A DNA stretch of 64,000 nucleotides from Myxococcota bacterium (GTDB lineage Bacteria; Myxococcota_A; UBA9160; SZUA-336): contig JBHHVJ010000010.1 in NCBI GenBank assembly GCA_046754285.1, positions 15,317 to 79,316 on the forward strand, written 5' to 3'. This document shows positions 29,701-58,770 of this stretch, in pieces; positions within the stretch are counted from its first letter, which is position 1, and each line of letters starts with the position of its first letter. A model generated the notes under the pieces. The model was not told the origin of the DNA. It searched no databases and saw only the letters and a program-made list of their open reading frames with translations. The position numbers were made by a program, and so were the translations under genes.

Positions 29701-30054
29701 TCAGCGGGCCAGGCTGCAGAGCGAGAGCCAGGCGGCAATCAGGGTGAGGCCGCCGAGGGGCGTCAGCGGGCCGAGCCAGCTCCAGTGGGTGAGCGCCAGG
29801 CCGTAGAGGGAGCCCGAGAAGAGCAGGATCCCGGTACAGAAGAGCGCGGCGGGCAGTGTGACGCTCTTCTGTGTCGATACCGCCAGCGTACCGAGGGCCA
29901 GGAGCACGACGCTGTGGAGCAGATGATAGCTGGCGCCCGTCCGCCAGGCGGCGAGCAGCTCGGGAGAGACCTGCTCCTTCAAGCCGTGCGCGCCGAAGGC
30001 CCCCGCCACGATCGCGAGGGCTCCGGAGATGCCAGCGGCGACGATCCAGGGCAC
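29701..30054 (-). CDS. DUF423 / YgdD-TMEM256 family membrane protein
   Basis: GAFGAHGL, TGASYHLLHS, LFSGSLY, TPLGG. Confidence 0.88.
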   Translation of the reverse strand: MPWIVAAGISGALAIVAGAFGAHGLKEQVSPELLAAWRTGASYHLLHSVVLLALGTLAVSTQKSVTLPAALFCTGILLFSGSLYGLALTHWSWLGPLTPLGGLTLIAAWLSLCSLAR

Positions 30055-30059
30055 GGCGG

Positions 30060-31739
30060 TCAGTCGGTGACCGCGCCCCGGCTGGCGCTCGAGACCAGCT
30101 TGGCGTACTTCGCCAGCACGCCGGAGCGGTAGCGCGGCGGGGGCGGCTCCCACTCAGCGCGGCGGCGCTCGAGCTCGGCCTCGTCCACCTCGAGTTGCAA
30201 GAGATTTCGCTCGGCGTCGATCGTGATCGGATCGCCGTCGCGCACGAGCGCGATGAGGCCGCCGACCTGCGCCTCCGGCGCGACGTGCCCGACGACCATC
30301 CCGAAGGTCCCGCCCGAGAAGCGACCGTCCGTGATCAGCCCCACCGAGTCCCCGTAGCCTTTCCCGATCAGCGCGCTTGTGGGACCGAGCATCTCGCGCA
30401 TTCCCGGTCCCCCGCGCGGTCCCTCGTAGCGCAGCACGAGGATGTCCCCACCCTGAACGCGGTCGGAGAGGATCGCCTGCATGCACGCCTCCTCCGACTC
30501 GAAGACGCGTGCGGGACCGGACATCCTCAGGCGCTTCACACCGCTCGTCTTGGCGACGCAGCCCTCCTCGGCCAGGTTTCCCCGGAGGATCGTGAGATGA
30601 CCCATCGGGTACTTGGGAGCGTCGAGGGGCAGCACGACCTCCTGACCGTGCGGCGGCTCGGCGGGGACGTCGTGCAGGTTCTCCGCCACGCTGCGACCCG
30701 TGACGGTCCTGCAGTGGCCGTGGAGCAGGCCACGCTCAAGCAGCATCTTCATGATCAGCGGGATGCCCCCAACCCGGTGGAGATCGGTGGTGACGTAGGT
30801 CCCCGAGGGCTTGAGGTCGGCCAGGTGGGGGACGCGCCGGCGAGCCCTCTCGAAGTCGTCGAGCCCGAGCTCCACCTCGGCCGCGTGTGCGATCGCGAGC
30901 AGATGCAGCACGGCGTTCGTCGATCCGCCCACGGCCATGACCACGGCGATGGCGTTCTCGAAGGCCTTCCGCGTCAGAATGTCGCGCGGCTTGAGGTCCT
31001 CCTCGACGAGCCTCAGCAGGCAGCGGCCGCTCTCCTCGGCGTCGAGTCGCTTCTCCTCGTCCTCGGCGGCCATCGTCGAGGAGTAGGGCAGGCTCATGCC
31101 CAGCGCCTCGAAGGCGCTGCTCATGGTGTTCGCGGTGTACATCCCGCCGCAGGAGCCCTTGCCCGGGATCGCACAACGCTCGATCTGCTGGAAGTCCTCG
31201 CGCCCGATACGACCGGCCTCGAGCTCCCCGACCGCCTCGAAGATGCTCACGATGGTCAGGTCTTTGCCGGCGTGGCGACCCGGCTTGATCGTCCCGCCGT
31301 AGACGAAGATCGAGGGGATATTCAGGCGCGCCATGGCGATCATCGCGCCCGGCATGTTCTTGTCGCAGCCCCCGACGGCGATCAGCCCGTCGTGGCTCTG
31401 CGCACGGCAGACCGTCTCGATCGAGTCGGCGATCACTTCCCGGCTCACGAGGGAGCACTTCATGCCCTCGGTGCCCATCGAGATTCCGTCGCTCACCGTG
31501 ATGGTGCCGAACGTCTGGGGCATGCCGCCCGCGGCACGGATCGCACGGCTCGCGGCCTCGGCGAGCTCCCCGAGCCCCGCGTTACACGGCGTGATGTCGC
31601 TCTGGCCGTTGGCCACCGCGAGGATCGGCTTGCCGAAGTCCTCATCCCGGAACCCGACCGCGCGAAGCATTCCACGGTTGGGGGCGCGTGGGTCTCCCTC
31701 GGTGACGATGCGGCTGCGGCGGTTCATGGCCCGGGCCAT
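30060..31739 (-). CDS. ilvD: Dihydroxy-acid dehydratase
   Basis: [59 protein letters not shown]. Confidence 0.96.
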
Positions 31740-31746
31740 CGGGACG

Positions 31747-33096
31747 TCATTGTACCCGTTGGAGGTGAAAGCTACCTGCCTCCCGCTCTTTGCGACCGCA
31801 CCAGGGACAGAAGCGCCAGAAGGAGCGGGACACCGGCCAGCGGCAGCGCGGGCAGCGGTCCGGAAGCTCCGGGTCGCTCCAGGGACGACGGACCTTCTGC
31901 TTGCAGACCGGGCAGTAGCGCATGAAGGGCCGGAGCTGGCCCGGACAGCCCTTGCGGCTGCAGCGGCGCTCTGCACGCGCATCGGGACGCAGCGGTCGGC
32001 CGTTGCCCTGGAAGCGGCCCGAGAAGCACCACGGGCAGGCGGTCCACTCGGGCCGCACGCCGCGCTCGCAGTCGGGACAGACGAGGGGGTACGGCGAGAG
32101 CTGGCGGAAGGAGTTGTCGGCGCTCCCGCACCAGGGACAGAAGACCATCTCCTCGGCGATCGGGCCCTCGCAGCGGTGGCAGGCGTAGCGCATCCCCAGC
32201 CTTCTGCCGTAGCGACGCCGGAACAGCTCGGCCTGCACCGCGAGTGGGCTCGGCTCGGGCGCGGGTCGGCGGCGCGGCGTACGCCGGTGCGGCCTCTCCT
32301 CGACCCGTCGAAAGGCCGCCTCCAGCTTCTCCTCCAGCTCCACCGCGCTGGCGAAGCGCCGCTCGGGCTCGAGCTCGGCCGCGCGGCGGAGCACGGGTCG
32401 CACGGGCTCGGGGACCTTGGCCTCGAAGCGCTCGATTCCCTCGGGCGGCCACTCGAAGGGCCAGCTCGGCAGCACACCCGTGAGGATCTCGTAGGCGATC
32501 AGGCCCAGCGAGAACACATCGGAGGCGAAGCTCGTGCGGCCGTAGGCCTGCTCGGGCGCCAGGTAGCCGAATGTGCCCACCTTCGTGAAGTCCTGGGTCA
32601 TCCCCTTGCTGAACCGCGAGAGCCCGAAGTCGGTCAGCGCGGCACGGCCGTCATCGAAGATCACGATGTTCTCCGGCTTGACGTCCCGGTGCAGGATGCG
32701 CCGCGCGTGCGCATGCGCAAGGCCAGCCGCGATGTCGCGAATGATGCGCAGGGCGATGCGCGCCGAGCGTCGTGCACCCCGATGGCGCTCCAGCGTGGTT
32801 CGCCCCAGCTCCGTGGCCAGAACGAAGTATCCGTCGATCCAGTCCGCGTTCCGGACCGCCACGATGTTGGGATGCGAGAGCTTCACCGCGAGGCGCGCCT
32901 CGCGCTCGATCTCCTCCCGCCCGTACTCCTCCACCACCGACGGAAGCGCCACCTTGAGCGCCACGTCCCGGCCCTCGACCAGGTCCCGCGCCTTCCAGAC
33001 CGTCGCGAACGCGCCTTCGCCAAGCTTCCGGTCGAGCCGGTACTTGCCGAGCCGTCCGCCGCGGCGGGGCACCGCACGCCTGGTCCCGAGGCTCAA
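31747..33096 (-). CDS. Hanks-type Ser/Thr protein kinase with C-terminal multi-zinc-ribbon region
   Basis: [38 protein letters not shown]; eight Cys pairs in the last ~140 aa; TTG start with SD GGAGG. Confidence 0.9.
31749..31754 (-). promoter_or_regulatory. Putative -10 element (TACAAT) for ilvD, inside the end of the kinase gene
   Basis: TACAAT 9 nt before ATG 31739; no SD. Confidence 0.5.
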
Positions 33097-33115
33097 AGCC
33101 GGCCCTCCGGCGGGG

Positions 33116-33601
33116 TCAATCCTGGTAGATCAGGCGCGTCAGGAACTCGGCCACGCAGCCCGGCTTGCTCTCCCCTTCGATCTCCATCGTGACCGTCTGC
33201 TTGAGCTGGAGCGCGTTCGCCCCCTTGAGCTCGGCCGAGACGAGGACCCTGCGAGCCCGCACCCGGGAGTTCACCTTGACCGGCGTCGGAAAGCGCACGC
33301 GGTCCAGCCCGTAGTTCAGTCCCATCGTGAGTCCCTCGAACGCCTGTGCGTCCGGCGGCGGCATCTTCGCCATCAGGTACGGGATCAGCGACAGGGTCAG
33401 GAAGCCGTGTGCGATCGTCACCTTGAACGGAGAGAGCTTCGCAGCCTTCTCGGGATCCACATGGATGAACTGATGGTCGTGGGTCGCCTCCGCGAAGCGG
33501 TTGATCTCCGCCTGGTCGATGAGGTGCCAGTCGCTGACGCCGTCCTCCTGCCCGATGCCCTTCTCGAAGATCGCCAGGGCCTTCTCCGCGTGACCTGCCA
33601 T
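33116..33601 (-). CDS. MaoC family dehydratase (NodN-like)
   Basis: FAEATHDHQFIHVDP, TIAHGFLTLSL, NYGLDRVRFP.PV. Confidence 0.9.
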   Translation of the reverse strand: MAGHAEKALAIFEKGIGQEDGVSDWHLIDQAEINRFAEATHDHQFIHVDPEKAAKLSPFKVTIAHGFLTLSLIPYLMAKMPPPDAQAFEGLTMGLNYGLDRVRFPTPVKVNSRVRARRVLVSAELKGANALQLKQTVTMEIEGESKPGCVAEFLTRLIYQD

Positions 33602-33618
33602 ACCGATGGCTTCCTTTC

Positions 33619-34068
33619 CTAGCGCCGAGGGGTCAGATCCAGGTCCGGGGGCGGGAAGTCGGGAAGCTTCCAGCGAATGTGCGGCTTGTCCTTCTTCTCG
33701 TGCCACGCGTTCGCCGAGTCCACGGCCTTCTCGATGGCGGCCTCGAAAGCGGCAAAATCCTCGTCCTTGATCGCGGCCTCCAGGGGCGCCCAGTCGTCCC
33801 GGAGATACTCCTCGATCGCCTCCTCGTGCTTGGGCCGCGTGTAGCAGCAGATCTCGAAGAGCTTCTTGGCCTCCTTCCACTGGTAGTGCGCGTTGGGCCA
33901 GTTGCCGGCCTTGGCGGCGTAGAAGAGCTTCCAGGTGCGGCTTCCGATCTCGGGCATGAGCCGGGCGAGCCCGGGTTGGATCATCGCGATCTCATCGATC
34001 GCCATGTCGCGCTTGCCGCTCCAGAAGACCATATCGCGCACGATCTCCTTGACGCGCTCCTCGTCCAT
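33619..34068 (-). CDS. Hypothetical helical protein
   Basis: 149 aa ORF with SD GGAGGA, short gaps to both neighbours; PGL..LM, KLFYAAKAGNW. Confidence 0.75.
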   Translation of the reverse strand: MDEERVKEIVRDMVFWSGKRDMAIDEIAMIQPGLARLMPEIGSRTWKLFYAAKAGNWPNAHYQWKEAKKLFEICCYTRPKHEEAIEEYLRDDWAPLEAAIKDEDFAAFEAAIEKAVDSANAWHEKKDKPHIRWKLPDFPPPDLDLTPRR

Positions 34069-34080
34069 CGCAGTCCTCCG

Positions 34081-35205
34081 TCAGGCTCGGGGGCCCAGCA
34101 GCTGCTCACACAGCTTGAGCCGTTCCAGATAGGCGCTTCGCACCAGCTCCACGTCCCGCACGAAGTGCTCGAGCTCCTCGAGCCGCAGCGCCTGGGGACC
34201 GTCGCAGAGCGCCTGCTCGGGGCGGGGATGAAAATCCACGAGCACGGCGTTGGCCCCCGTGATGATGCCCTGCGCGGTCACGTGCTGGATGTCCAGCAGG
34301 CCGTCGCTTGCGGCGACCTTCTTTCCCACCGAGTGCGAGGGATCGATGCAGACGGGCAGACGCGTCAGGCGCTTGATGACGGGGACGTGCCCGAAGTCCA
34401 CGAAGTTCCGGTGCGGATCCCCGAGATGGCTCTTGACCCCCCGCAGGCAGAAGATGATCCGCCGGTTCCCGCCGGACGCCACGTACTCGCAGGCGTTCAG
34501 GGACTCATCGAGCGTGATCCCCATTCCCCTCTTGTAGAGGACCGGGAACTCCTGCTGTTGACCGACGACTTTGAGCAGCTCGAAGTTCTGGGCGTTGCGC
34601 GTCCCGATCTGGAGCAGCACACCCGTGGGATGACCCGCTGCATCCAGCGCACCACAGATCTCATCGAGCTGCGTCTCGTGCGTAATCTCCATGGCGATCA
34701 CCTTGATCCCATAGCGGCCCGCCAGCTCAAAGACGTAGGAAAGACACTCTCGCCCGTGCCCCTGGAAGTCGTAGGGGCTGGTGCGCGGCTTGTAGGCCCC
34801 GGCGCGCGTGGTCTCCAGACCGACGGAGGCCAGCGCCCGGAACATCTCCTCGACGCTCTCGCGTCGGTCCACGGCACACAGACCCGCGAAGATGTGCAGG
34901 CTGTCTTGGCTGAAGTGGAGCCCGTTGTACTCGAAGCCGAGCGCCTCGACCTGTCCAGCGTGGCGGCCGATGGAGCGGTAGCGCTCCCGGACCCGGATCA
35001 CGCGCTCCACGGCCGAGAACTCCTCGAAGGGAGCCTCGGGAACCGCGGCAGTCGATCCCAGCAGGTAGATCTCCGTGAGCGCCCGCGTGGTACCCCGAAT
35101 CACGCGAACCTCGGTCTGGACGTCCGGGTAGCGCTCGGCCAGCTCCACGACCTGCCGGACCTCGGGCGAGTCGGGCAGGATGTCGGCCTTCATCACGATG
35201 ATCAT
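34081..35205 (-). CDS. aroF: 3-deoxy-7-phosphoheptulonate (DAHP) synthase, type I-beta with N-terminal regulatory domain
   Basis: IFAGLCAV, RAGAYKPRTSPYDFQG, QIGTRNAQNFELL, KRGMG, IDPSHSVG, ALCDGPQAL. Confidence 0.9.
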   Translation of the reverse strand: MIIVMKADILPDSPEVRQVVELAERYPDVQTEVRVIRGTTRALTEIYLLGSTAAVPEAPFEEFSAVERVIRVRERYRSIGRHAGQVEALGFEYNGLHFSQDSLHIFAGLCAVDRRESVEEMFRALASVGLETTRAGAYKPRTSPYDFQGHGRECLSYVFELAGRYGIKVIAMEITHETQLDEICGALDAAGHPTGVLLQIGTRNAQNFELLKVVGQQQEFPVLYKRGMGITLDESLNACEYVASGGNRRIIFCLRGVKSHLGDPHRNFVDFGHVPVIKRLTRLPVCIDPSHSVGKKVAASDGLLDIQHVTAQGIITGANAVLVDFHPRPEQALCDGPQALRLEELEHFVRDVELVRSAYLERLKLCEQLLGPRA

Positions 35206-35214
35206 CTTGGCGCC

Positions 35215-35220
35215 ATACTA
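35215..35220 (-). promoter_or_regulatory. Putative -10 element (TAGTAT) for aroF
   Basis: 9 nt before ATG 35205; no SD. Confidence 0.45.
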
Positions 35221-35320
35221 CCCAGGGCCCGCGCACGATTCCACCGTCCCGCCCTCCGGGACCCCGACCTCCGCGCCCAGCTCGGCGCCGGAAAGCTGCC
35301 GGCCCCGACGGGATCCCGGC

Positions 35321-35333
35321 GGCAGGATCTGCC
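35321..35333. promoter_or_regulatory. Putative enhancer (UAS) palindrome GGCAG-GAT-CTGCC
   Basis: Perfect 5-bp inverted repeat centred 85 bp upstream of the -24 G at 35412; same structure found upstream of flgB. Confidence 0.6.
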
Positions 35334-35409
35334 CCCCGGCAGACGGGACCCGGGTAAGCAGAGACCCCTTGGAGGACAAGGTGGGTCAGGTGAGACGCGG
35401 CAAAGCTCC

Positions 35410-35425
35410 GGGCACACGCATTGCA
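35410..35425 (+). promoter_or_regulatory. Sigma54 -24/-12 promoter
   Basis: GGGCAC-ACGCA-TTGCA; GG-N10-GC spacing. Confidence 0.7.
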
Positions 35426-35438
35426 GCCTCGGGGGGCG

Positions 35439-37690
35439 ATGTTCTTCCCGGGGGAAAAGACAACGGGGCGCAGGAGCTGCCCAGTTCGGAGGGGCTCGAT
35501 CGCACGCCCGTTTGCTGCACACATCGCTGGGCTCCTGCTCGCGACGCTCGGCGCGAGCCCAGCCGCACACGGCGCAGAGCTGATCGACTCCCAGATCTGG
35601 CAGGCGCACTTCGAGGCGTGGGTCGAGCGGGCGTTGGTACGGGACGAGCTGGACGAAGCCGCCCGGCACGCGCCGGAGCTGGACCCCGGCTCGACCCTGC
35701 GCGTGCTCAACGAGCTGGTGAAGGCGCGGCTCGACGGCCATCCAGAAGGCCTCGCGCTCCCGTCGGAGGTCATCGCGAAGATCCGTGCGCCCGGAATATC
35801 TGGACCCGTCCGGCAGGCCGCACTGCACTACGCGCGCGGCGACATCGAGAAGGCCCGGGAGATCCTCGACGCCCCGGAGCTGGAGAGCGATGCGGACGCC
35901 GCCCATCTCCAGGCTCAGATCCACGACGCCCAGACGGAGAACGAGGAGCCCTACTCGCCTTACCACCGACTCGAGGCGATCGCGGACTATCGCTATGCCC
36001 TGAGCCTGTCCGAGGAGTCCGCCCAGGAGGACCGTGCGCGCGTGCGTATCGGCCAGATCCTCGCCGAGCTTCGCTTCTTTCCGGAGGCGAGGGCCACCTT
36101 CCGGCCGCTTCTCGAGCGGGAGCTTCGCGAGCCATACGACCTGGCAGCGCAGGTCTCGTACACCGAGACGACCTACCTGGCCCGCGATCCCCGTCGCACC
36201 CTGGTGTCGCTCGGTGAGCTCGATCTCGAGACGCTCTCGCCCGCGCTGCGCCACTGGGCCATTCGGCGAACGGGCGACAGCTTCTACCGGCTCGGCAACG
36301 CCCGGGCTGCGGTCCGTGCCTACACACGGCTGATCGAGGAGGCGAGCGACCCCGCGCAGATCGATCCGATCACCCGCCTCCGGCTGACCATGGCCCTGCT
36401 CGAGCTGGGCAAGCCCTCCGAGGCGCAGCTCGAGCTCGCGCACGTGCTCGGAGACACGGACGCCCCCGAGGAGCTCACCGCGCTCGCGGGCCTGCTCCTG
36501 GCGCGCGCCCTACGCGAGACGGAGGCCTACGCGAACGCGGCAGACGTGGCGGCCGAGGTCGCACGGTCTCGCGGGCCGTCCTCCGAGAGTGCGCTGGCCT
36601 GGGTCGAGCTCCTGGAGTCGCGGGGGCGGGTGGGCGAGCCCGTGCTGGAGCTTTCCGACGAGGTGGACGATCTGGCCCAGCGGACGGACGAGGCGCCGGC
36701 CTATGACCTCCTCGCGTATCGGCTGCTGCAGCAGCCGGGTATCGCCGAGACGCCGGCGGAGCTGCGGACCCTCCTGGGCCAGCTGCTCCCAAAGCTCGCG
36801 GACGGACCCGTGCGCAGGCTGGCCCGCGATGATCTCACGGCCCGGCTTCAGGCCCATCTTCGCAGCGTCCAGCTCGGTGAGGAGGAGCTCGACCCGCAGG
36901 TGCTGAAGGACGTCGCCGAGTACCTGCACCCAAGTCACGTCGATCAGGACGCTCTGCTTCTCGGCCTGGAGTCCTTCTACCGTAGTGGGGACTGGGAGAG
37001 CTGCATGCGCTGGGGCCGCACCCTCCACCGCAGCGACGTGCGCCCGATTCGCAAGGGTCTCGGCGCCTGGCGGGACCTGCAGTGTCGCCGCGCCAAGCAG
37101 CCCAGCCTCGTGTCCTCGCGAAACCTGATTCTGCTGGCCGACGGCGGGCGAACGGGATCCTTTGCGCTGGCCCTCGCTGCCGTGGCGGCCGAGGAGGCGC
37201 TGCGCGCAGGCGATCCCCAGGAGGCACGAGAGATCTACGACGCGGCGTTGCACTCGGTGGCCGATCCCCGGCTGCTCGGCCCCGTCCTGCTGCGGGCCGC
37301 AGAGCTCGACCTCGCGGAGGGGCGGCTGCGCGTAGGGGCGCGGAAGCTGCTTCGAGGGCTCGCCCTCACCGACGAAGACGATGTGGTCCATGATCCCTTT
37401 CGCAAGGCAGGCCTGGTAGCGCTCGGCCGTGTCACCGCCACGGAGAAGCTACGAAAGGATCGCGAGCTCACGTCCGTTCTGGAGCGAGAGCGAGAGCGAG
37501 CCGAGAGCTGGTGGGCACCGGTCTACGCTTATCTGGGATTCCGAGCCGGGCGTACGGGCGCACCGCATGGCGGCGACGTCTTCTCCCGGGCGGCGCTCGA
37601 GGTGCGTCGCGTCGCCGAGCTTCGCTCCCGTGTCGAGAAGATCGTGGGTCGCGAAGCTCTCGAGACCGCTCGGACGGAGCTGCGCTCAAG

Positions 37691-37694
<4 letters not shown>
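35439..37694 (+). CDS. Large alpha-helical (TPR-like) exported protein heading the flagellar cluster
   Basis: Signal-peptide-like segment ending ASPAAHG-AE; repeated TPR-like helices (GDSFYRLGNARAAVRAY, GQILAELRFFPEARATF); ATGA overlap with the activator; start approximate. Confidence 0.65.
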
Positions 37695-39094
<1,400 letters not shown>

Positions 39095-43553: not shown

Positions 43554-44857
43554 GCGATCCCAAGGCACTGATCCGGGCCCTCGGGGCCGCCGCGCCTCCG
43601 ACCGGCGGGTTCCTGAGCTCGATTCGAGGTCTGCTCGCAGAGGCCGACGGCCTGGAGCTTCCGGTCGGGGGGCTGGCGGAAATCGAGACCGGGTCCGGCT
43701 TCAGCCCGGCCGAGGTGGTCGGCTTTCGCAGCGGTCACGTGCAGCTCGTTCCGCTCCACGCCTGCCGCGGGCTCGAGGCCGGCTGTCGAGTCTGGCCGCT
43801 GTCGCGCGCGGCGGGGGTCCCCGCGGGTGAGTTCCTGCTGGGCCGCACCGTCGACGCCATGGGACAGCCGCTGGACGGTGGCCCGCCCTTTCCTCCCGCG
43901 GCTCGCGTGCCGCTGTACCGCGAGCCGATCGCCGCACTCGAGCGGCCCGTACTCGAGGAGCCACTCGACGTGGGGGTCCGCGCGATCAACGCAGCCGCGA
44001 CCGTCGCACGTGGGCAACGCATGGGCCTGTTTGCCGGAACCGGCGTGGGCAAAAGCACGTTGCTGGGGATGATGCTGCGCGGAACCGACGCCGACGTGCG
44101 CGTGCTGGCTCTGATCGGAGAGCGAGGGCGCGAGGTGCGGGAGTTCATCGAGCGTGAGCTCGGCGAGGCGCGCCAGAGCACCGTCGTCGTGGCCGTTCCA
44201 TCCGATCGCTCACCGCTGCTGCGCATGCGGGGCGCCTACGTGGCCACGGCCATCGCCGAGCACTTCCGGGAGCGGGGTCGCGACGTCCTGCTGCTGATGG
44301 ACTCGATCACTCGCTTCGCCTTCGCCGCACGCGAGATCGGTCTCGCGCGCGGTGAGCCCGCCACGACCAAGGGGTACACGCCCAGCGTATTCGCCGAGCT
44401 TCCCGCACTCACGGAGCGGGCGGGCCGACTGGAGCGTGGGAGCGTCACGGCGATCTACTCCGTGCTCGTCGAGGGCGACGATCTCGAGGACCCCGTCGCG
44501 GACGCGATGCGGGGCCTGCTCGACGGCCACATCATCCTCTCGCGGGACCTCGCGGAGCGCGCTCAGTTCCCCGCGGTCGACGTGCTGGGCAGCATCAGTC
44601 GGGCGATGATCTCGGTCACGGACCTGCGGCATCGCGAGCTCGCCCAGCAGATGCGGCGCCTGCTCGCGGCCTATCGGGATGCCGAGGACCTGATCCAGGT
44701 GGGAGCCTACGCCCAGGGATCGGATCCCGTCGTGGACGAGGCGATTCGCCGACGCACGCGTCTTCAGGACTTCTTGAGGCAGGACGCTCACGAGCGTGCC
44801 TCCATGACGCAGACCCTCTCCGAGCTCGAGTGTGTCCTGACGGAGCCGATCCAATGA
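43550..44857 (+). CDS. fliI: Flagellar export ATPase FliI
   Basis: GLFAGTGVGKSTL, LIGERGREVREF, MDSITRFA.A.REIGL, ILDGHI variant (LLDGHIILSR). Confidence 0.94.
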   Translation: MSDPKALIRALGAAAPPTGGFLSSIRGLLAEADGLELPVGGLAEIETGSGFSPAEVVGFRSGHVQLVPLHACRGLEAGCRVWPLSRAAGVPAGEFLLGRTVDAMGQPLDGGPPFPPAARVPLYREPIAALERPVLEEPLDVGVRAINAAATVARGQRMGLFAGTGVGKSTLLGMMLRGTDADVRVLALIGERGREVREFIERELGEARQSTVVVAVPSDRSPLLRMRGAYVATAIAEHFRERGRDVLLLMDSITRFAFAAREIGLARGEPATTKGYTPSVFAELPALTERAGRLERGSVTAIYSVLVEGDDLEDPVADAMRGLLDGHIILSRDLAERAQFPAVDVLGSISRAMISVTDLRHRELAQQMRRLLAAYRDAEDLIQVGAYAQGSDPVVDEAIRRRTRLQDFLRQDAHERASMTQTLSELECVLTEPIQ

Positions 44858-45303
44858 GCCGTCGCTCGCGTCTTCCGGTGCTGATCCGCCTGGCCGAGCA
44901 CGAGGAGAGCCGGGCCATGCAGACGCTCGGACGCACCCGCCTGGCCGTCACTCGTGCCGAAGCCGCACTCCACCGGATCCGGAGCGATGCGACCACCACG
45001 CTCCTGGGCTCTGTGCTTCAGACCGGCCGTCCCATCCCCGCCGACACCCTGACCAGCGAGGCGATGCGGGGTGCCGGACTTCGCTTGCGAGCGGAGGCGA
45101 TTCGCGTCGAGCTGGAAGGTGCGCGCAAAGCGGAGGGAACGGCGCGCGAGACGGTCGTCGCAGCCAAGCTCCGCCTACGCACGCTTCGCAAGGCGGTCGC
45201 CCAGCGCGAACGGCGCACGAGGCGCGAGCAGATGCGTCGTGAGACACGACGGCTCGACGAGGTGCAGCGTGGGATGCGCTCGCTGGAGGCCGAGCTCCCA
45301 TGA
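44854..45303 (+). CDS. fliJ: Probable FliJ (coiled coil)
   Basis: 149 aa helical protein directly after fliI (ATGA overlap), C-terminal EQ..E...LDE. Confidence 0.7.
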   Translation: MSRRSRLPVLIRLAEHEESRAMQTLGRTRLAVTRAEAALHRIRSDATTTLLGSVLQTGRPIPADTLTSEAMRGAGLRLRAEAIRVELEGARKAEGTARETVVAAKLRLRTLRKAVAQRERRTRREQMRRETRRLDEVQRGMRSLEAELP

Positions 45304-45725
45304 GGTTCGCGCTCCCGCTTCTCCTGCTGCTGCTTCCCGTCCTGCTCGGCGCGGACTCCCCTCCCGCCACCGAGCCGGAAGCGACCGATGAGCGGATGCT
45401 CGAGCTCGAGGCACGCGAGGCGGCGCTTCGCGTGCTCGAGGAGGATCTGGCCCGACGCATCGAGGAGCTGCGTGAGCTTCGCGAGGCGGCAATCGCGGCA
45501 ATTCTGCCGCAGGAACGGGAGCGTGCCGCACAGCTCGAGACGCTGATCAGCTTCTACCAGGCGATGAAGCCCAAGCAGGCGGCCAAGCTCCTGGAGAAGC
45601 TACCCAGCTCGCTGGCGGCGGACGTGCTCAGCGCGATGAAGTCGCGGTCGGCGGGCAAGATCCTGGACGTGATGAGTGCGGAACGTGCGGTCGTGATTTC
45701 CAAGCTGATGGCGGGGAGGAACTGA
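45300..45725 (+). CDS. MotE/FlbB-like protein (MgtE N-terminal-like repeat)
   Basis: Signal peptide, coiled coil, Y.AMKPKQAAKLL and MKSR.AGKIL..M motifs; usual slot between fliJ and fliK. Confidence 0.75.
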   Translation: MRFALPLLLLLLPVLLGADSPPATEPEATDERMLELEAREAALRVLEEDLARRIEELRELREAAIAAILPQERERAAQLETLISFYQAMKPKQAAKLLEKLPSSLAADVLSAMKSRSAGKILDVMSAERAVVISKLMAGRN

Positions 45726-49192: not shown

Positions 49193-49780
49193 ATGGCTGA
49201 CGACGCAAAAGACAAGAAAGAGACCGCGGACCCGGAAGCTGAGGAGGCGACGGGCGGCGGCAAGAAGAAGCTCGTCCTCATCGTGGCGATCGCGGGTGTG
49301 CTCGTGCTCGGCGGCGCGGGCGCCGGCTTCGTGCTGCTCAGAGGCTCGGGCGATGGCACGGAGACCGAGGCGGAGGCCGAAGGCGAGAGCCACGAGAGGG
49401 CCGACGCGGAGACGCTCGAGCACGACGAGGCGGGATCGACCGAAGCCGAGGCGGAGGCCCACGAGCCCGAAGGAGCGGTGGGAAAGATGTACGCGCTGGA
49501 GCCGTTCATCGTGAACATCGCGGATCGGGAGCGCGACCGATACCTCAAGATCAAGGCCGAGCTGGAGCTGGTCCGGCCCGAGGTGGCCAACGAGGTCGAG
49601 GCGCGGCTGCCGCAGCTCCGAGACATGGTGATCAGCCTGCTGGGCAGCAAGTCCTTCGAGGAGATCCGCTCGATGGAAGGCAAGGACCTGTTGCGTGAAG
49701 AGCTCCTGCAGCGCATCAACGCCCTGCTCACGACCGGCAAGGCTCGGCGAATCTTCTTCACGGAGTTCGTCGTCCAGTGA
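49193..49780 (+). CDS. fliL: Flagellar basal body protein FliL
   Basis: KKKL + TM, acidic linker, FIVNIAD..R.RYLK, PQLRD..I.LL.SK. Confidence 0.9.
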   Translation: MADDAKDKKETADPEAEEATGGGKKKLVLIVAIAGVLVLGGAGAGFVLLRGSGDGTETEAEAEGESHERADAETLEHDEAGSTEAEAEAHEPEGAVGKMYALEPFIVNIADRERDRYLKIKAELELVRPEVANEVEARLPQLRDMVISLLGSKSFEEIRSMEGKDLLREELLQRINALLTTGKARRIFFTEFVVQ

Positions 49781-50940
49781 CCGAGCCGATCCTCGAGCAG
49801 GAGCAGATCGACCAGCTCATCGAGGCGATCCACGAGGGCCGGATCGCGACCAAACCCGACTCGCTGGCGCACGTGGCGCAGGCGACCCCTCTCGACCTTC
49901 GCAATCCGAGCTGGAACCAGGATCGGATCATCCGGCGGCGGCTACCGGTGCTCGAGCTGGTCTTCGATCGTCTCGGCCCATCGCTCCAGGTGACCCTCAC
50001 GAAGGGGCTCCGCTCTCCGGTCCGCGCAGAAGGATCGAGCGTCGTGCTGCAGAAGTTCGGGGATTTCCGGAGGCAGTTCGATGGGCGCCGCTGCATCTTC
50101 CAGGTCGTACGGCTCGATCCACTGCGCGGCTACAGCATGGTCGTCATGTCCCCTACGCTCACCTATGCCCTGATCGACGCATCGATGGGAGGCCTGGGAA
50201 TCGCGGAGGTTCCCGAGGAACGGGAGATCTCGGACATCGAGGTCGGCCTGCTCTACCGGCCTTACATGGACCTGCTGCGCGACTTCGAGAACGCGTGGAA
50301 GAGCTGGTTTCCGCTGCGCGTCGAGAACGTGCGCAGCGATCGAGACAACCAGGTGTCCTCCACGCTCTCGGATGAGGAGATCTGCCACATCGGTACGATC
50401 AAGATCTCGGGTGACGTCCTTCCCACGTCTCCGATCCACTTCATCCTCCCCTACACCAGTCTGGAGCCGCTGCTCGAAGCGACATCCGCCCGCGCCGGAG
50501 ATGACGTGGACCCCAACTGGCGCGTGCATCTTCACCGGAGCCTGATGGACGTCGAGGCCGAGGCGACGGCGGTACTGGGCGAGACCGAGATCCCAGCCGA
50601 ACGGGTCCGAGCCCTCGCCGAAGGGGACGTCATCGAGCTCGATCATCGACCCGACCAGGACATCGACGTTCGCGTGGAAGGGGAACCGATCTTTCGTGGA
50701 AGGCTCGGCAAGAGCCATCTGAAGTACGCCGTTCGGATCAGCGGAAGGCGACGGGTCGAGAGAACACTCGTCGATCGAACCAACGGCCAGATCCTGGTGC
50801 GGAAGGGTCTGATCTCTCACGAGCAGCTCGCGGTGGCACAGGTGGATGAGCTGATCAACCGGCGTCCACTGCTCGATTCGATCGTGTCACGCGGCTGGGT
50901 GGAACGCCGTGTGCTCGAGGCCGCGCTCGGAATCGGCTAG
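49777..50940 (+). CDS. fliM: Flagellar switch protein FliM with extra C-terminal MshEN-like domain
   Basis: N-terminal ILEQEQIDQLI (CheY-binding-like), MGG.G, SpoA domain (GDVIEL..., GRLG), then about 55 extra aa. Confidence 0.88.
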   Translation: MTEPILEQEQIDQLIEAIHEGRIATKPDSLAHVAQATPLDLRNPSWNQDRIIRRRLPVLELVFDRLGPSLQVTLTKGLRSPVRAEGSSVVLQKFGDFRRQFDGRRCIFQVVRLDPLRGYSMVVMSPTLTYALIDASMGGLGIAEVPEEREISDIEVGLLYRPYMDLLRDFENAWKSWFPLRVENVRSDRDNQVSSTLSDEEICHIGTIKISGDVLPTSPIHFILPYTSLEPLLEATSARAGDDVDPNWRVHLHRSLMDVEAEATAVLGETEIPAERVRALAEGDVIELDHRPDQDIDVRVEGEPIFRGRLGKSHLKYAVRISGRRRVERTLVDRTNGQILVRKGLISHEQLAVAQVDELINRRPLLDSIVSRGWVERRVLEAALGIG

Positions 50941-50952
50941 GAGGAGAATCGC

Positions 50953-51243
50953 ATGCCCGAAGAAGCCAGCCCGACCACAGGTGAGGACAGCTTCGATCTG
51001 CTGCTGGACGTTCCACTCAAGATCTCGGCGGAGCTCGGCCGAACGCGGCTCCGCGTTCAAGAGCTCATCGAGCTCGGCCAGGGATCCATCGTGGAGCTGG
51101 ACCGGTTGATCGGAGAGCCCGTGGACATCCTGGTCAACGGCCGCCACATCGCCCTCGCCGAGATCGTCGTGGTCAACGATCGCTACGCCGTCCGCATCGT
51201 CTCGGTGAACAGCCCCACCGAGCGCGTCGAGTCGTTGGCATGA
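50953..51243 (+). CDS. fliN: Flagellar switch protein FliN
   Basis: LLDVPL.ISAELGRT, GSIVELD...GEPVDILVNG, EIVVVND.YAVRI. Confidence 0.94.
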   Translation: MPEEASPTTGEDSFDLLLDVPLKISAELGRTRLRVQELIELGQGSIVELDRLIGEPVDILVNGRHIALAEIVVVNDRYAVRIVSVNSPTERVESLA

Positions 51244-56704: not shown

Positions 56705-57916
56705 ATGCAGGTCAAGACCTTCGAAGCCGTGGACATGAAGCAGGCGCTCCAGCTCGTCAAACAGGAGCTGGGCCCCCGCGCGGTGATCGTATCCAGCCGG
56801 ACCGTGCGGCGCGACGGCGGAATGTTCGGCCTGCTCGGGCGCAAGGTTCTCGAGGTCACCGCGGCCGTGGAGGACGATCGCAAGGTGGAGCCCGCCACCG
56901 TCAAGGGGCCGCTCGCGCCCGATCTACCGGCCACGCCCCGCAAGCGCAGCGGCGGACGCTACCACGACATCTGGGCGGTGCGTCAGGCGGTGGATCCTGT
57001 CCTCGATGAGGTCCGGGCCCTTCGAGACCAGCTCACCTCGGTTGACGATCGGGCCGCAGCGGAGCCGCGCGAGCTGCGCTCGGACCTGGCCCAGATTCGC
57101 ACGCTGCTCTCTTCGCTGGTGGGCTCCGGAGCGCTGGCCCCCGACGCCGAAGGTACGGCGGCGCAGCGGCTGTTCTACTTCCTGCTGAGCCGCGGAATTG
57201 ACGAGCCTCTCGCACGCTCGTTGGTGCAACGCATCATCGCGCGCATCGATCCGGGCGGCCTCGGAAATCTGGAGCGGCTCAAGCTCAATCTCGCCGCTGA
57301 GATGCGCAGCGACCTGGTGCGCTGTGAACGTGGCAGCCCCCCGGGCCGCGTTCAGCTCTTCATCGGCCCGACGGGCGTGGGCAAGACGACGACGATCGCG
57401 AAGCTGGCGGCGCGCGCATCGCGGGACAGCGTCTTGATCATCACGACCGACGTGCACCGCGTGGCGGCGGTCGAGCAGATGATCCGCTTCGGAGAGATGA
57501 TCTCGGTGCCCGTCGAGGTGGCGATCAGTCCTGCGGATCTCGGCCGTGCCATCGCACAGGCAGAGGACCGGGACCGGATCTTCGTGGACACCGCCGGTCG
57601 CAGCCATCTTGACGCCTCCGGCCATCGAAGCCTGCAGGCCTTCGTCGAGGCTGCGGGCGAGGCCGAGCTCATGCTGGTCCTGGCCGCCACCACTCGGGCC
57701 GTGGACTCGCGTGAGATCCTCGACTTCTACTCGGATCTGCCCTTCTCTCGGCTCATTCTGACCAAGCTCGACGAGACGCGGGTCTACGGCGAGCTGTACA
57801 ACTGCATGGTACGGAGTGGGCGGCCGATCGCTTGCGTCACGCACGGGCAGGCCGTACCGGACCACCTCGAGTCGCTGGACATCGCCGGTGTGCTCCGGAA
57901 GGTGCTGCACGGATAG
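56705..57916 (+). CDS. flhF: SRP-type GTPase FlhF
   Basis: MQVKTFEA..M..AL..VK.ELG..AVI, GPTGVGKTTT.AKLAA, DTAGRS, TKLDET, GQ.VPD. Confidence 0.93.
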   Translation: MQVKTFEAVDMKQALQLVKQELGPRAVIVSSRTVRRDGGMFGLLGRKVLEVTAAVEDDRKVEPATVKGPLAPDLPATPRKRSGGRYHDIWAVRQAVDPVLDEVRALRDQLTSVDDRAAAEPRELRSDLAQIRTLLSSLVGSGALAPDAEGTAAQRLFYFLLSRGIDEPLARSLVQRIIARIDPGGLGNLERLKLNLAAEMRSDLVRCERGSPPGRVQLFIGPTGVGKTTTIAKLAARASRDSVLIITTDVHRVAAVEQMIRFGEMISVPVEVAISPADLGRAIAQAEDRDRIFVDTAGRSHLDASGHRSLQAFVEAAGEAELMLVLAATTRAVDSREILDFYSDLPFSRLILTKLDETRVYGELYNCMVRSGRPIACVTHGQAVPDHLESLDIAGVLRKVLHG

Positions 57917-57924
57917 GGGGCCGC

Positions 57925-58770
57925 ATGGGCCAGGATGCCGAAAGCTTTGTCGCGAAGGCCAAGGAGCTGCCCGTCATGCCGCCCGTGGCTGCCGAGGTCA
58001 TGAAGAAGGCCGAGGATCCCGAAACGGATCTCAAGTCGATCTCGACGCTGATATCCCGGGATGCGGCCCTCGCCGTTCGCGTACTCAAGATCGCGAACTC
58101 CTCTTTCTATTCCATGCCGCGCCGGATCGACTCGATCCAGCAAGCCATCGTGCTGCTGGGCTACTCGACGCTCCGCTCGGTGGTGGTGGCCGCGGCGATC
58201 AAGGACGTCTTCAGCCGCTTCGGCCTCGCCGAGCGACTGCTCTGGGAGCATGGGGTCGCGGGGGGCGTGGGCGCTGCCCTGCTGGCTCAGCAGGTCGGAG
58301 GCATCGCCCGGGAAGAGGCCTTCGTGGGAGGTCTGGTTCACGACATCGGAAAGCTCGTCATCTACTCTCAGGCCCAGGCTGACTATCAGAAGGTGCTGAC
58401 TGCGGTCTACAGCGAGGAGAAGGACTCCGTGAGCGCGGAGACCGAGGTTTTCGGCTTCGACCACACCCAGGTCGGCCGTCTGGTGCTCCACAAGTGGCGT
58501 TTGCCCGAGAGCCTGGCCGCCGCCGTGGGGGCCCACCACGATCTGGAGCGGGCGGGCAGCGTCGACGGTGCCCGTCCGCTGGCGGCCGTGCTCATGGTCG
58601 CCGATCGACTTTGCCTGCGGGAGGGCATCGGCCGCCGCAAGTCGGCGCCGGAGCTTGATCCATTCGCCTGTCCCGGTGGGGAGCTCCTCGGACTGACCGG
58701 CTCCGACATCGATGAGCTCGCTGGCCGTTTCGTCGAGACCTACGAGGAGGAGAGGAAGCTCTTCGGATGA
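57925..58770 (+). CDS. Stand-alone HDOD domain protein
   Basis: LP.MP, D.AL...VLK.ANS.FY, AIV.LG, LWEH, GLVHDIGKL, FGFDH..VG.....W.LP..L..AV..HH. Confidence 0.9.
   Translation: MGQDAESFVAKAKELPVMPPVAAEVMKKAEDPETDLKSISTLISRDAALAVRVLKIANSSFYSMPRRIDSIQQAIVLLGYSTLRSVVVAAAIKDVFSRFGLAERLLWEHGVAGGVGAALLAQQVGGIAREEAFVGGLVHDIGKLVIYSQAQADYQKVLTAVYSEEKDSVSAETEVFGFDHTQVGRLVLHKWRLPESLAAAVGAHHDLERAGSVDGARPLAAVLMVADRLCLREGIGRRKSAPELDPFACPGGELLGLTGSDIDELAGRFVETYEEERKLFG

What the first reader, a model, noticed from the sequence alone, without database searches (positions are those of the whole stretch)
50776..50940. FliM fused to a C-terminal MshEN-like domain: possible built-in c-di-GMP sensor on the flagellar switch
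Seen: after the SpoA domain, where FliM normally ends, there are about 55 extra aa, RTNGQILVRKGLISHEQLAVAQVDE-LINRRPLLDSIVSRGWVERRVLEAALG. These form two tandem copies of the pattern xxGxxLVxxGLIxxxQLxxA. Established: this is the MshEN repeat (RLGxxLLxxGLVxxxxLxxxLxxQ), a c-di-GMP receptor on T4P/T2SS ATPases; known c-di-GMP motor brakes (YcgR, MotI, FlgZ) are separate PilZ proteins. I do not know of a described FliM-MshEN fusion. Caveat: both RLG motifs are degenerate (R-TNG, RR-PLL) and the terminal Gln is absent, so it may be a protein-interaction or oligomer module instead. The domain would be present in many copies at the base of the C-ring.
Basis: partly seen in the sequence, partly recalled or inferred. 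Interest (0 to 1): 0.8.

Follow-up and report, generated by a model that had tools for sequence, protein, structure and literature searches.

The report
FliM with fused MshEN-like tail
In one uncultured bacterial family the flagellar switch protein FliM carries a strongly conserved extra C-terminal domain related to a known c-di-GMP-binding module, but about half of the residues that normally hold c-di-GMP are replaced, so it is a new switch add-on whose ligand or partner is still open.

Summary
The fliM gene (window 49777-50940, +) encodes a complete FliM. [quoted passage not shown]

The bundle is homologous to MshEN_N, the minimal c-di-GMP-binding module of MshE/PilB/PilF ATPases:
- NCBIfam NF053729: E 7e-7, below the curated cut-off.
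- hhalign: probability 99.3%.
- Foldseek: the top 12 hits are all MshE or PilF GSPII structures, most of them c-di-GMP complexes, rmsd about 1.1 Å.

The tail is the most conserved part of the protein. It occurs in all 12 FliM-bearing genomes of this family. It is absent from 64 other FliM-bearing genomes sampled from the same phylum, and in no other architecture among 1.84 billion representative proteins.

The sensor reading is weak. The scaffold (24+5+24 register, Gly turns, core) is kept. Six to seven of the 12 key ligand positions are changed, in the same way across the family:
- position 1, R to T/S
- position 2, L to A
- position 21, L to Q/R
- position 24, Q to E
- position 3', G to L/V/I
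- position 24', absent

None of 65 homologues fits even the relaxed published motif. Comparable changes abolish binding in PilF and XpsE.

My best reading (0.45) is a repurposed interaction module tethered to the C-ring. A built-in c-di-GMP sensor remains possible (0.25). This is a new variant of a known kind; interest 0.55.

The parts
49777..50940 (+). fliM ORF (387 aa, GTG start overlapping the fliL stop codon; stop codon included)
   Evidence: Pfam FliM (2.3e-27) plus FliMN_C (3.9e-21); TIGR01397 fliM_switch 3e-53
49777..49836 (+). N-terminal CheY-binding-type peptide (MTEPILEQEQIDQLIEAIHE; family consensus LxQxEIDQLI, Q8 and D12 invariant)
   Evidence: Sequence inspection and alignment A2. 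The resemblance to the E. coli FliM N-terminus is from my own knowledge.
49915..50478 (+). FliM middle domain (residues 47-234)
50539..50742 (+). SpoA / FliMN_C domain (residues 255-322)
50743..50772 (+). Variable linker (residues 323-332); low model confidence at 330-332
50773..50931 (+). MshEN_N-like four-helix bundle (residues 333-385), the most conserved part of the protein
50779..50850 (+). Motif I equivalent (residues 335-358): T-N/A-G instead of R-L-G (invariant R334 one residue upstream); G344 turn; L351 kept; position 21 = Q/R; position 24 = E358
50851..50865 (+). 5-residue spacer (LINRR; N361 invariant, R/K at 362-363)
50866..50937 (+). Motif II equivalent (residues 364-387): P-L-L instead of R-L-G; G373 turn; W374 invariant; L380 and L384 kept. 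The protein ends at or before position 24' (absent in 48 of 65 homologues; Gly in the window's own protein).
50953..51243 (+). fliN (96 aa, SpoA domain only), the structural partner of FliM's SpoA domain
49193..49780 (+). fliL, translationally coupled to fliM (GTGA overlap)

Best explanation
This FliM is a normal switch protein with a CheY-binding N-terminus, a middle domain and a SpoA domain that pairs with FliN. In one family-level lineage of uncultured Myxococcota/'Deltaproteobacteria' it acquired a C-terminal MshEN_N-type four-helix bundle on a flexible tether of about 10 residues.

The bundle keeps the MshEN scaffold. About half of the positions that contact c-di-GMP in MshE and PilF are replaced, and the replacements are themselves nearly invariant across the lineage.

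I therefore think it most likely no longer binds c-di-GMP in the canonical way. Instead it probably works as an interaction module, one copy per FliM, hanging from the base of the C-ring. It could dock a regulator; candidates are the HDOD protein conserved in the same operon or one of the genome's about 15 PilZ proteins. Or it could bridge neighbouring FliM/FliN subunits.

Shown: the fusion, the homology and fold, the flexible tether, the extreme conservation, the clade distribution, and the deviation from the binding motif. Inferred: the loss of canonical ligand binding and the docking or bridging role.
For: Fusion and homology:
- NF053729 hit at E 7e-7, with all 47 tails matching.
- hhalign probability 99.3%, gapless.
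- Tail model pLDDT 91.5; the Foldseek top 12 are MshE or PilF GSPII structures, rmsd 1.1-1.7 Å, 23-36% identity.

Tether: in the full-length model the linker 330-332 has pLDDT below 50 and the tail is a separate helical module.

Selection:
- Mean column identity is 0.81 in the tail, against 0.60 in SpoA and 0.72 in the middle domain.
- Twelve invariant tail residues include the polar D333, R334, R342, E349, Q350, D357, N361 and R372.

Deviation from the binding site:
- Position 24 is E in 63 of 65; position 24' is absent in 48 of 65; position 3' is never Gly; position 21 is Q/R; position 2 is mostly Ala.

Experimental precedents:
- PilF Q190E costs 158-fold in affinity, and Q190E+Q218E abolishes binding.
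- PilF GSPII-A, with a degenerate motif II, does not bind (PMC11731258).
- XpsE lost binding with G40L, L29R and Q61V among other changes (PMC5013675).
- The four-helix ND0 of X. citri PilB also lacks the motifs and does not use c-di-GMP directly (PMC8389850).

Within its own genome the tail is the weakest of 7 NF053729 matches (27.9 bits; four others exceed the 38-bit cut-off).
Against: - No partner has been identified.
- No solved example shows an isolated MshEN_N/ND0 bundle acting as a docking site. In the X. citri PilB-PilZ complex the contacts are on ND1, not ND0.
- Many invariant polar residues (D333, R334, Q338, D357, E358, N361, R362/363, D367, S368) lie at the helix ends that form the ligand-binding end in MshE. 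This fits a remodelled small-molecule site as well as it fits a protein interface.
- Arg is kept one residue upstream of both motifs. 'R-P-L-G' is a common natural variant of motif II.
- G337, L351, L365, L380 and L384 are retained.
- Some MshEN proteins with imperfect motifs still bind c-di-GMP (Bd1509 and Bd1596).
- The 53-63-residue subdomain alone is sufficient for binding in MshE and PilF.
Confidence: 0.45

Rival explanations
1. Built-in c-di-GMP sensor. The tail still binds c-di-GMP, perhaps with lower affinity or a shifted mode that uses R334 and R363 for stacking. Ligand binding on each FliM subunit would then alter C-ring conformation, stator engagement or switching, giving an adaptor-free brake.
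For: - The tail is homologous to, and superposable on, the c-di-GMP-bound MshEN_N module.
- The 53-residue module alone suffices for binding in MshE and PilF.
- The genome uses c-di-GMP: 8 GGDEF hits, 16 PilZ hits and 6 other MshEN-type domains.
- Arg residues immediately precede both motifs, and G337, L351, L365, L380 and L384 are retained.
- Single Q-to-E PilF mutants still bind at 0.5-1 µM.
- Imperfect motifs can bind.
- Earlier unverified notes of this scan report stand-alone MshEN proteins with intact motifs encoded right after fliM-fliN in Acidobacteriota, a Rosetta-stone-like link.
Against: - Six to seven of 12 key positions are changed, and the changes are fixed across the lineage.
- The combination E at position 24 plus no residue at 24' mimics the binding-null PilF double mutant.
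- G3' to L/V/I and L21 to Q/R are the changes blamed for the loss of binding in XpsE.
- 0 of 65 homologues match the relaxed motif.
- The NF053729 score for the window's protein (27.9-29.2 bits) is below the 38-bit curated cut-off.
Confidence: 0.25
2. Sensor of a different small ligand, such as another cyclic or linear nucleotide or a metabolite. The former c-di-GMP pocket would have been remodelled into a new site lined by the invariant D333, R334, Q338, D357, E358, N361, R362/363, D367 and S368.
For: - The replacements at ligand positions are not random decay. They are nearly invariant over 52-100% identical homologues, and the tail is the most conserved region.
- The conserved polar residues sit at the helix termini that form the ligand end in MshE. 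This is inferred from the register and the structure description.
Against: - No MshEN-type domain is known to bind anything but c-di-GMP or close analogues.
- No ligand can be named.
- The same conservation is expected for a protein interface.
Confidence: 0.12
3. Artefact: a mis-called stop codon, a frameshift or an assembly chimera makes FliM appear fused to a neighbouring small gene.
For: One representative (P0074) is an obviously chimeric gene call that carries the tail in the middle of the protein.
Against: - The same in-frame fusion, ending 2-5 residues after the bundle and followed by fliN, is found in 65 protein clusters from independent assemblies and in 12 of 12 FliM-bearing genomes of the family.
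- There are no stops or frameshifts in the window.
Confidence: 0.01

Closest known systems
MshEN_N, the 53-residue c-di-GMP-binding four-helix module of V. cholerae MshE (PDB 5HTL) and T. thermophilus PilF GSPII-B (8PDK)
   Same: Same fold (rmsd about 1.1 Å over 50 columns, 30-36% identity). Same 24+5+24 register, Gly turns and hydrophobic core. The 'G-L-I-S/T-x-E-Q-L' signature is kept.
   Different: It is attached to the C-terminus of FliM instead of the N-terminus of a secretion or pilus ATPase. It has no MshEN_C alpha/beta subdomain. R-L-G, L21 and Q24 are not kept in motif I; G3' and Q24' are not kept in motif II. The NCBIfam score is below the cut-off and there is no Pfam T2SSE_N hit.
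Degenerate, non-binding MshEN-type bundles: XpsE N-terminus, X. citri PilB ND0, PilF GSPII-A
   Same: The scaffold is retained while ligand residues are replaced. Some substitutions are the same kind (G40L, L29R and Q61V in XpsE). Non-binding was shown experimentally for XpsE and GSPII-A.
   Different: Those are still parts of ATPases and are followed by the ND1/MshEN_C subdomain. Their sequences look relaxed, whereas the FliM tail's replacements are under very strong purifying selection.
PilZ-type flagellar brakes (YcgR, MotI/DgrA, FlgZ) and Caulobacter Cle proteins (CheY-like c-di-GMP effectors that bind FliM; PMC5677366)
   Same: They would share the target, the flagellar switch or stator, if the tail transmits a second-messenger signal.
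   Different: Those are separate, diffusible proteins with PilZ or Arg-rich CheY-like binding sites. Here the module is covalently part of FliM, belongs to a different fold family and lacks an intact binding motif.
Stand-alone MshEN proteins encoded after fliM-fliN in Acidobacteriota
   Same: An MshEN-type module is genetically linked to the flagellar switch genes.
   Different: Those are separate genes, often with a zinc ribbon, and are reported to have intact motifs. Here the module is fused to FliM, lies upstream of fliN and has a degenerate motif. I found no canonical motif within ±1.5 kb of 26 other fliM loci of this phylum.

Membership tests
FliM (flagellar motor switch protein) | FliM middle domain (PF02154) followed by a C-terminal SpoA/FliMN_C domain (PF01052) | tested here: met
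   96.6 bits (cut-off 27) and 75.2 bits (cut-off 23.8). The TIGR01397 equivalog model scores 181 bits, below its 219.6 cut-off, so this is a divergent member.
FliM (flagellar motor switch protein) | N-terminal CheY-P-binding peptide (LSQxEIDALL type) | tested here: met
   Residues 5-15 read ILEQEQIDQLI. The family consensus is LxQxEIDQLI, with Q8 and D12 invariant. The comparison with E. coli is from my own knowledge.
FliM (flagellar motor switch protein) | Encoded in a flagellar operon between fliL and fliN | tested here: met
   the operon runs flgB/C-fliE-F-G-H-I...fliK-flgD-flgE-fliL-fliM-fliN-fliO-P-Q-R-flhB-flhA-flhF. The order is conserved in 6 related genomes.
MshEN_N c-di-GMP-binding domain (NF053729; Wang et al. 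2016) | Four-helix bundle built from two helix-Gly turn-helix units in a 24+5+24 register | tested here: met
   G344 and G373 are 29 residues apart, and the hhalign alignment is gapless over 53 columns.
MshEN_N c-di-GMP-binding domain (NF053729; Wang et al. 2016) | Profile score above the curated cut-off | tested here: not met
   27.9-29.2 bits against a 38-bit cut-off for the window's protein. Four other proteins of the same genome pass the cut-off.
MshEN_N c-di-GMP-binding domain (NF053729; Wang et al. 2016) | R-L-G at positions 1-3 of both motifs (stacking Arg, cluster Leu, backbone-donor Gly) | tested here: not met
   Motif I is T/S-A/V/S/N-G, with an invariant Arg at position 0. Motif II is P/S-L-L/V/I, and position 3' is never Gly.
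MshEN_N c-di-GMP-binding domain (NF053729; Wang et al. 2016) | LxxxLxxQ at positions 17-24 of both motifs | tested here: not met
   Motif I is L...(Q/R)..E, with E in 63 of 65. Motif II is L...L, with position 24' absent in 48 of 65. 0 of 65 homologues match the relaxed published motif.
MshEN_N c-di-GMP-binding domain (NF053729; Wang et al. 2016) | Binds c-di-GMP | not testable with these tools
   This needs ITC, DRaCALA or MST on purified protein.
T2SSE_N (Pfam PF05157, full MshEN/GSPII domain) | N-terminal helical subdomain plus C-terminal alpha/beta subdomain, recognised by the Pfam model | tested here: not met
   There is no PF05157 hit at E up to 10 for the window's tail or for any of 47 tails. 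The protein ends right after the helical bundle.
PilZ-type flagellar brake (YcgR-like) | PilZ domain with RxxxR and DxSxxG motifs | tested here: not met
   There is no PilZ hit in FliM. PilZ domains lie elsewhere in the genome, none on this contig.

The most novel reading that the evidence does not exclude
The flagellar switch protein itself is a second-messenger receptor. Each FliM subunit would carry its own MshEN-derived nucleotide sensor, for c-di-GMP in a non-canonical mode or for another nucleotide. The C-ring would then read the signal directly and cooperatively, without any PilZ or CheY-like adaptor. Together with the stand-alone MshEN proteins next to fliMN reported for Acidobacteriota, this would define a second, non-PilZ route from c-di-GMP to the motor.
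Probability: 0.25. Interest if true: 0.85.

Novelty: new variant of a known kind. Interest (0 to 1): 0.55.

Why it matters
All described c-di-GMP inputs to the flagellar motor act through separate proteins: YcgR, MotI and FlgZ PilZ proteins, Cle proteins, or regulators such as FleQ and FliI. This is a core C-ring subunit that has permanently acquired a module from a c-di-GMP-receptor family and kept it under stronger selection than the rest of the protein.

If the module still binds a nucleotide, it would be the first receptor built into the switch. If it does not, it would show how a receptor fold is recycled into a structural or docking element of a rotary motor.

Standard domain annotation misses it: there is no Pfam hit and the NCBIfam score is below the cut-off.

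The limits are that it is confined to one uncultured family and that its function cannot be decided from sequence alone.

Tried and rejected
- Pfam T2SSE_N gave no hit for the tail or its 47 homologues. Only weak, sub-threshold hits appeared (DUF7236, FumaraseC_C, ExsD and others) and I discarded them.
- TIGR01954 (NusA C-terminal HhH repeat) hits 16 of 47 tails, but at 15-19 bits (window's tail) against a 48-bit cut-off and over only 29 residues. I treat this as a generic helix-hairpin-helix resemblance.
- I considered the X. citri PilB-PilZ complex as a precedent for docking by a degenerate MshEN domain. The paper shows that the PilZ contacts are on the ND1 alpha/beta subdomain, which FliM lacks, so it is not a direct precedent.
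- I looked for the tail in other architectures. A word-based search on residues 328-387 found only FliM proteins. The exhaustive profile search of 1.84 billion representatives found only FliM proteins or FliM fragments above 100 bits. Ten further hits scanned with Pfam were generic MshEN repeats joined to DUF4388, FHA or WecG, or had no domain hit; none had FliM domains.
- I looked for canonical MshEN motifs within ±1.5 kb of 26 other fliM loci in the phylum and found none.
- The search for related loci in genome contigs returned only one locus, 'MAG: Deltaproteobacteria bacterium CR02bin3'.
- Literature searches for a FliM-MshEN fusion returned no description. Neither the main text nor the supplement of Wang et al. 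2016 mentions FliM.
- The search of earlier findings by sequence returned nothing.

Full report
**1. What is there**

The window carries a complete, intact flagellar gene cluster on the + strand from about 37.5 kb to the end. It runs: sigma-54 activator, flgB/C, fliE, fliF, fliG, fliH, fliI, a MgtE_N-like gene, fliK, flgD, flgE, fliL, fliM, fliN, fliO, fliP, fliQ, fliR, flhB, flhA, flhF, an HDOD gene, flgF, flgG, flgA, flgH, flgI and a rod-binding protein.

fliM is the ORF 49777..50940. Its GTG start overlaps the fliL stop codon. It encodes 387 aa. Pfam finds the FliM domain at residues 47-234 and the SpoA/FliMN_C domain at 255-322. The N-terminus (ILEQEQIDQLI) has the form of the CheY-binding peptide.

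**2. The tail is an MshEN_N-type domain**

- NCBIfam NF053729 ('cyclic di-GMP-binding domain, MshE-related', 53 positions) matches residues 337-384 at profile positions 3-50. E is 7e-7 for the tail alone, at 28.9 bits, below the 38-bit cut-off.
- All 47 non-redundant tails of homologues match the same model, best E 1.5e-9.
- A profile of the tails searched against PDB sequences puts the c-di-GMP-binding GSPII domains of PilF, and then PilB, on top, though weakly (E 0.008-0.09).
- hhalign of the tail profile against 11 canonical MshEN_N segments gives probability 99.3%, E 3e-20, over 53 gapless columns. One caveat: those segments were picked from hits of the tail profile.
- AlphaFold2 on the tail alignment gives a confident four-helix bundle (pLDDT 91.5).
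- The 12 best Foldseek matches in the PDB are all MshE or PilF GSPII structures, most of them c-di-GMP complexes (rmsd 1.1-1.7 Å over about 50 columns, 23-36% identity, probability 0.95-1.0). Their E-values are weak only because the query is short.
- Pfam's T2SSE_N model does not see the tail. That model spans the whole two-subdomain MshEN domain, and FliM has only the helical N-subdomain.
- In the full-length model the bundle (helices 335-342, 348-361, 365-372, 377-384) is a separate unit. It sits behind a low-confidence linker (330-332 with pLDDT below 50), so it appears flexibly tethered.

**3. Distribution and selection**

- A protein search found 65 full-length clusters (385-396 aa, 52-80% identity). 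One carries the label 'Myxococcota bacterium'. All end with the same tail.
- Mean column identity is 0.81 in the tail, 0.72 in the middle domain, 0.60 in SpoA and 0.58 in the N-terminus.
- Twelve tail residues are invariant: D333, R334, L340, R342, G344, E349, Q350, L351, D357, N361, R372 and W374.
- In the GTDB family of the window's genome, 12 of 32 genomes have FliM, and all 12 carry the tail. One genus with 12 genomes has no FliM at all.
- In an even sample of 301 genomes of the phylum, 70 have a FliM match. Only the 6 from this family have the tail.
- Twenty-six of the best-matching other FliMs were compared directly. They are at most 31% identical, and most end shortly after SpoA.
- An exhaustive profile search of 1.84 billion representative proteins found scores above 100 bits only for FliM or FliM fragments. 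One of these is a chimeric gene call. Everything else scored 65 bits or less. Ten of these were scanned with Pfam: generic MshEN repeats joined to DUF4388, FHA or WecG, or no domain hit; none has FliM domains.
- Operon order around fliM is conserved in the related genomes.
- The fusion is therefore real, fixed in one lineage and specific to it.

**4. Is the c-di-GMP site intact?**

Wang et al. 2016 (PMC5013675) define two 24-residue motifs, RLGxxLVxxG(I/F)(L/V)xxxxLxxxLxxQ, joined by 5 residues. The roles of the key positions are:
- R1 stacks on a guanine.
- L2, L17' and L21' (and reciprocally L2', L17 and L21) form the hydrophobic clusters under the bases.
- The backbone NH groups of G3 and residue 4 bind O6 and N7.
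- Q24 binds ribose and phosphate.

The register was anchored by NF053729 and by hhalign. In it the FliM family reads as follows:

| Position | Canonical | FliM family (of 65) |
|---|---|---|
| 0 | – | R (65) |
| 1 | R | T/S (61) |
| 2 | L | A (39), V, S, N |
| 3 | G | G (64) |
| 17 | L | L (65) |
| 21 | L | Q/R (54) |
| 24 | Q | E (63) |
| 1' | R | P/S |
| 2' | L | L (48), F, I |
| 3' | G | L/V/I/F (65; never Gly) |
| 17' | L | L (56) |
| 21' | L | L (62) |
| 24' | Q | absent (48) |

Only 5 of 12 key positions are kept, or 6 if P at position 1' is accepted as a known variant. None of the 65 sequences matches even the relaxed motif used by Wang et al. for database mining.

The experimental yardsticks point the same way:
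- In PilF GSPII-B, Q190E lowers affinity 158-fold and Q218E 77-fold. The double mutant does not bind (PMC11731258). FliM has E at the first position and nothing at the second.
- PilF GSPII-A, with a good motif I and a degenerate motif II, does not bind.
- XpsE's loss of binding is attributed to changes that include G40L, L29R and Q61V. The first two are the same positions and kinds of change as here.

Some observations point the other way:
- Arg is conserved one residue before each motif, and 'R-P-L-G' is a common natural variant.
- The 53-63-residue subdomain alone can bind.
- Imperfect motifs sometimes bind.
- The replaced positions are themselves almost invariant. That suggests a remodelled but functional surface rather than decay.

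**5. Context**

The genome uses c-di-GMP. It has 8 GGDEF hits, 16 PilZ hits and 6 further MshEN-type domains, four of them above the NCBIfam cut-off. Conventional receptors are therefore available, and the FliM tail is the least canonical MshEN domain in the genome.

An HDOD-domain gene sits between flhF and flgF, where flhG often lies. It is conserved there in 5 of 5 related genomes that cover the region. HDOD proteins such as SadB have been linked to c-di-GMP and flagellar regulation (PMC6543031). This makes the HDOD protein a candidate partner, but that is speculation.

Earlier notes of this scan, which are AI-written and unverified, report stand-alone MshEN proteins with intact motifs directly after fliM-fliN in several Acidobacteriota. 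If correct, this is an independent genetic link between MshEN modules and the switch. It raises the prior that the tail's ancestor was a c-di-GMP receptor acting on FliM/FliN. I found no such gene next to 26 other fliM loci of this phylum.

**6. Verdict**

The 'built-in c-di-GMP sensor' reading is possible but disfavoured by the residues (0.25).

My best reading (0.45) is a repurposed MshEN_N bundle that has lost the canonical site. It would serve as a tethered interaction module at the base of the C-ring, either docking a partner or bridging subunits. A remodelled site for another ligand is a minor rival (0.12), and an artefact is excluded.

I found no description of this architecture in the literature searched. 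I class it as a new variant of a known kind. It is of moderate-to-good interest, limited by its restriction to one uncultured family and by the unresolved function.

Noticed in passing
window 57832-58770 (+): An HDOD-domain protein (PF08668, 4e-56) is encoded between flhF and flgF, the place where flhG (the MinD-like partner of FlhF) usually sits. It is conserved at that position (58-65% identity) in 5 of 5 related tail-bearing genomes that cover the region. HDOD proteins such as SadB have been linked to c-di-GMP and flagellar control.
   Followed up: partly
window 37511-39094 (+): A sigma-54 activator (AAA+ domain plus Fis-type HTH) lies directly upstream of flgB/flgC/fliE. Its N-terminal residues, about 185 of them, have no Pfam hit. 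It could be a FleQ/FlrA-like master regulator with an unrecognised input domain.
   Followed up: no
window 45300-45725 (+): A small MgtE_N-domain protein lies between the unassigned ORF at 44830-45303 (no Pfam hit; fliJ's usual place, after fliI) and fliK.
   Followed up: no
family-level survey: Within the window's GTDB family only 12 of 32 genomes have FliM, and one genus with 12 genomes has none. This family's FliM is at most 31% identical to the 26 best-matching other FliMs of the phylum sample that were compared. The flagellar system is therefore patchy and divergent within the phylum.
   Followed up: partly
P0142, P0117, P0135 (representative-library hits): These are small proteins without Pfam domains. 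They end in an MshEN-like unit whose second motif is degenerate in a way reminiscent of the FliM tail (...AL.D....SL.(D/E).I..RG(W/F)...). They may represent a wider sub-family of half-degenerate MshEN_N modules from which the tail derives.
   Followed up: no
window 29871-35583 (+): Several long ORFs (619-684 aa), two of them overlapping, lie upstream of the flagellar cluster and have no Pfam hit. In this high-GC sequence they may be real unknown genes or spurious frames.
   Followed up: no
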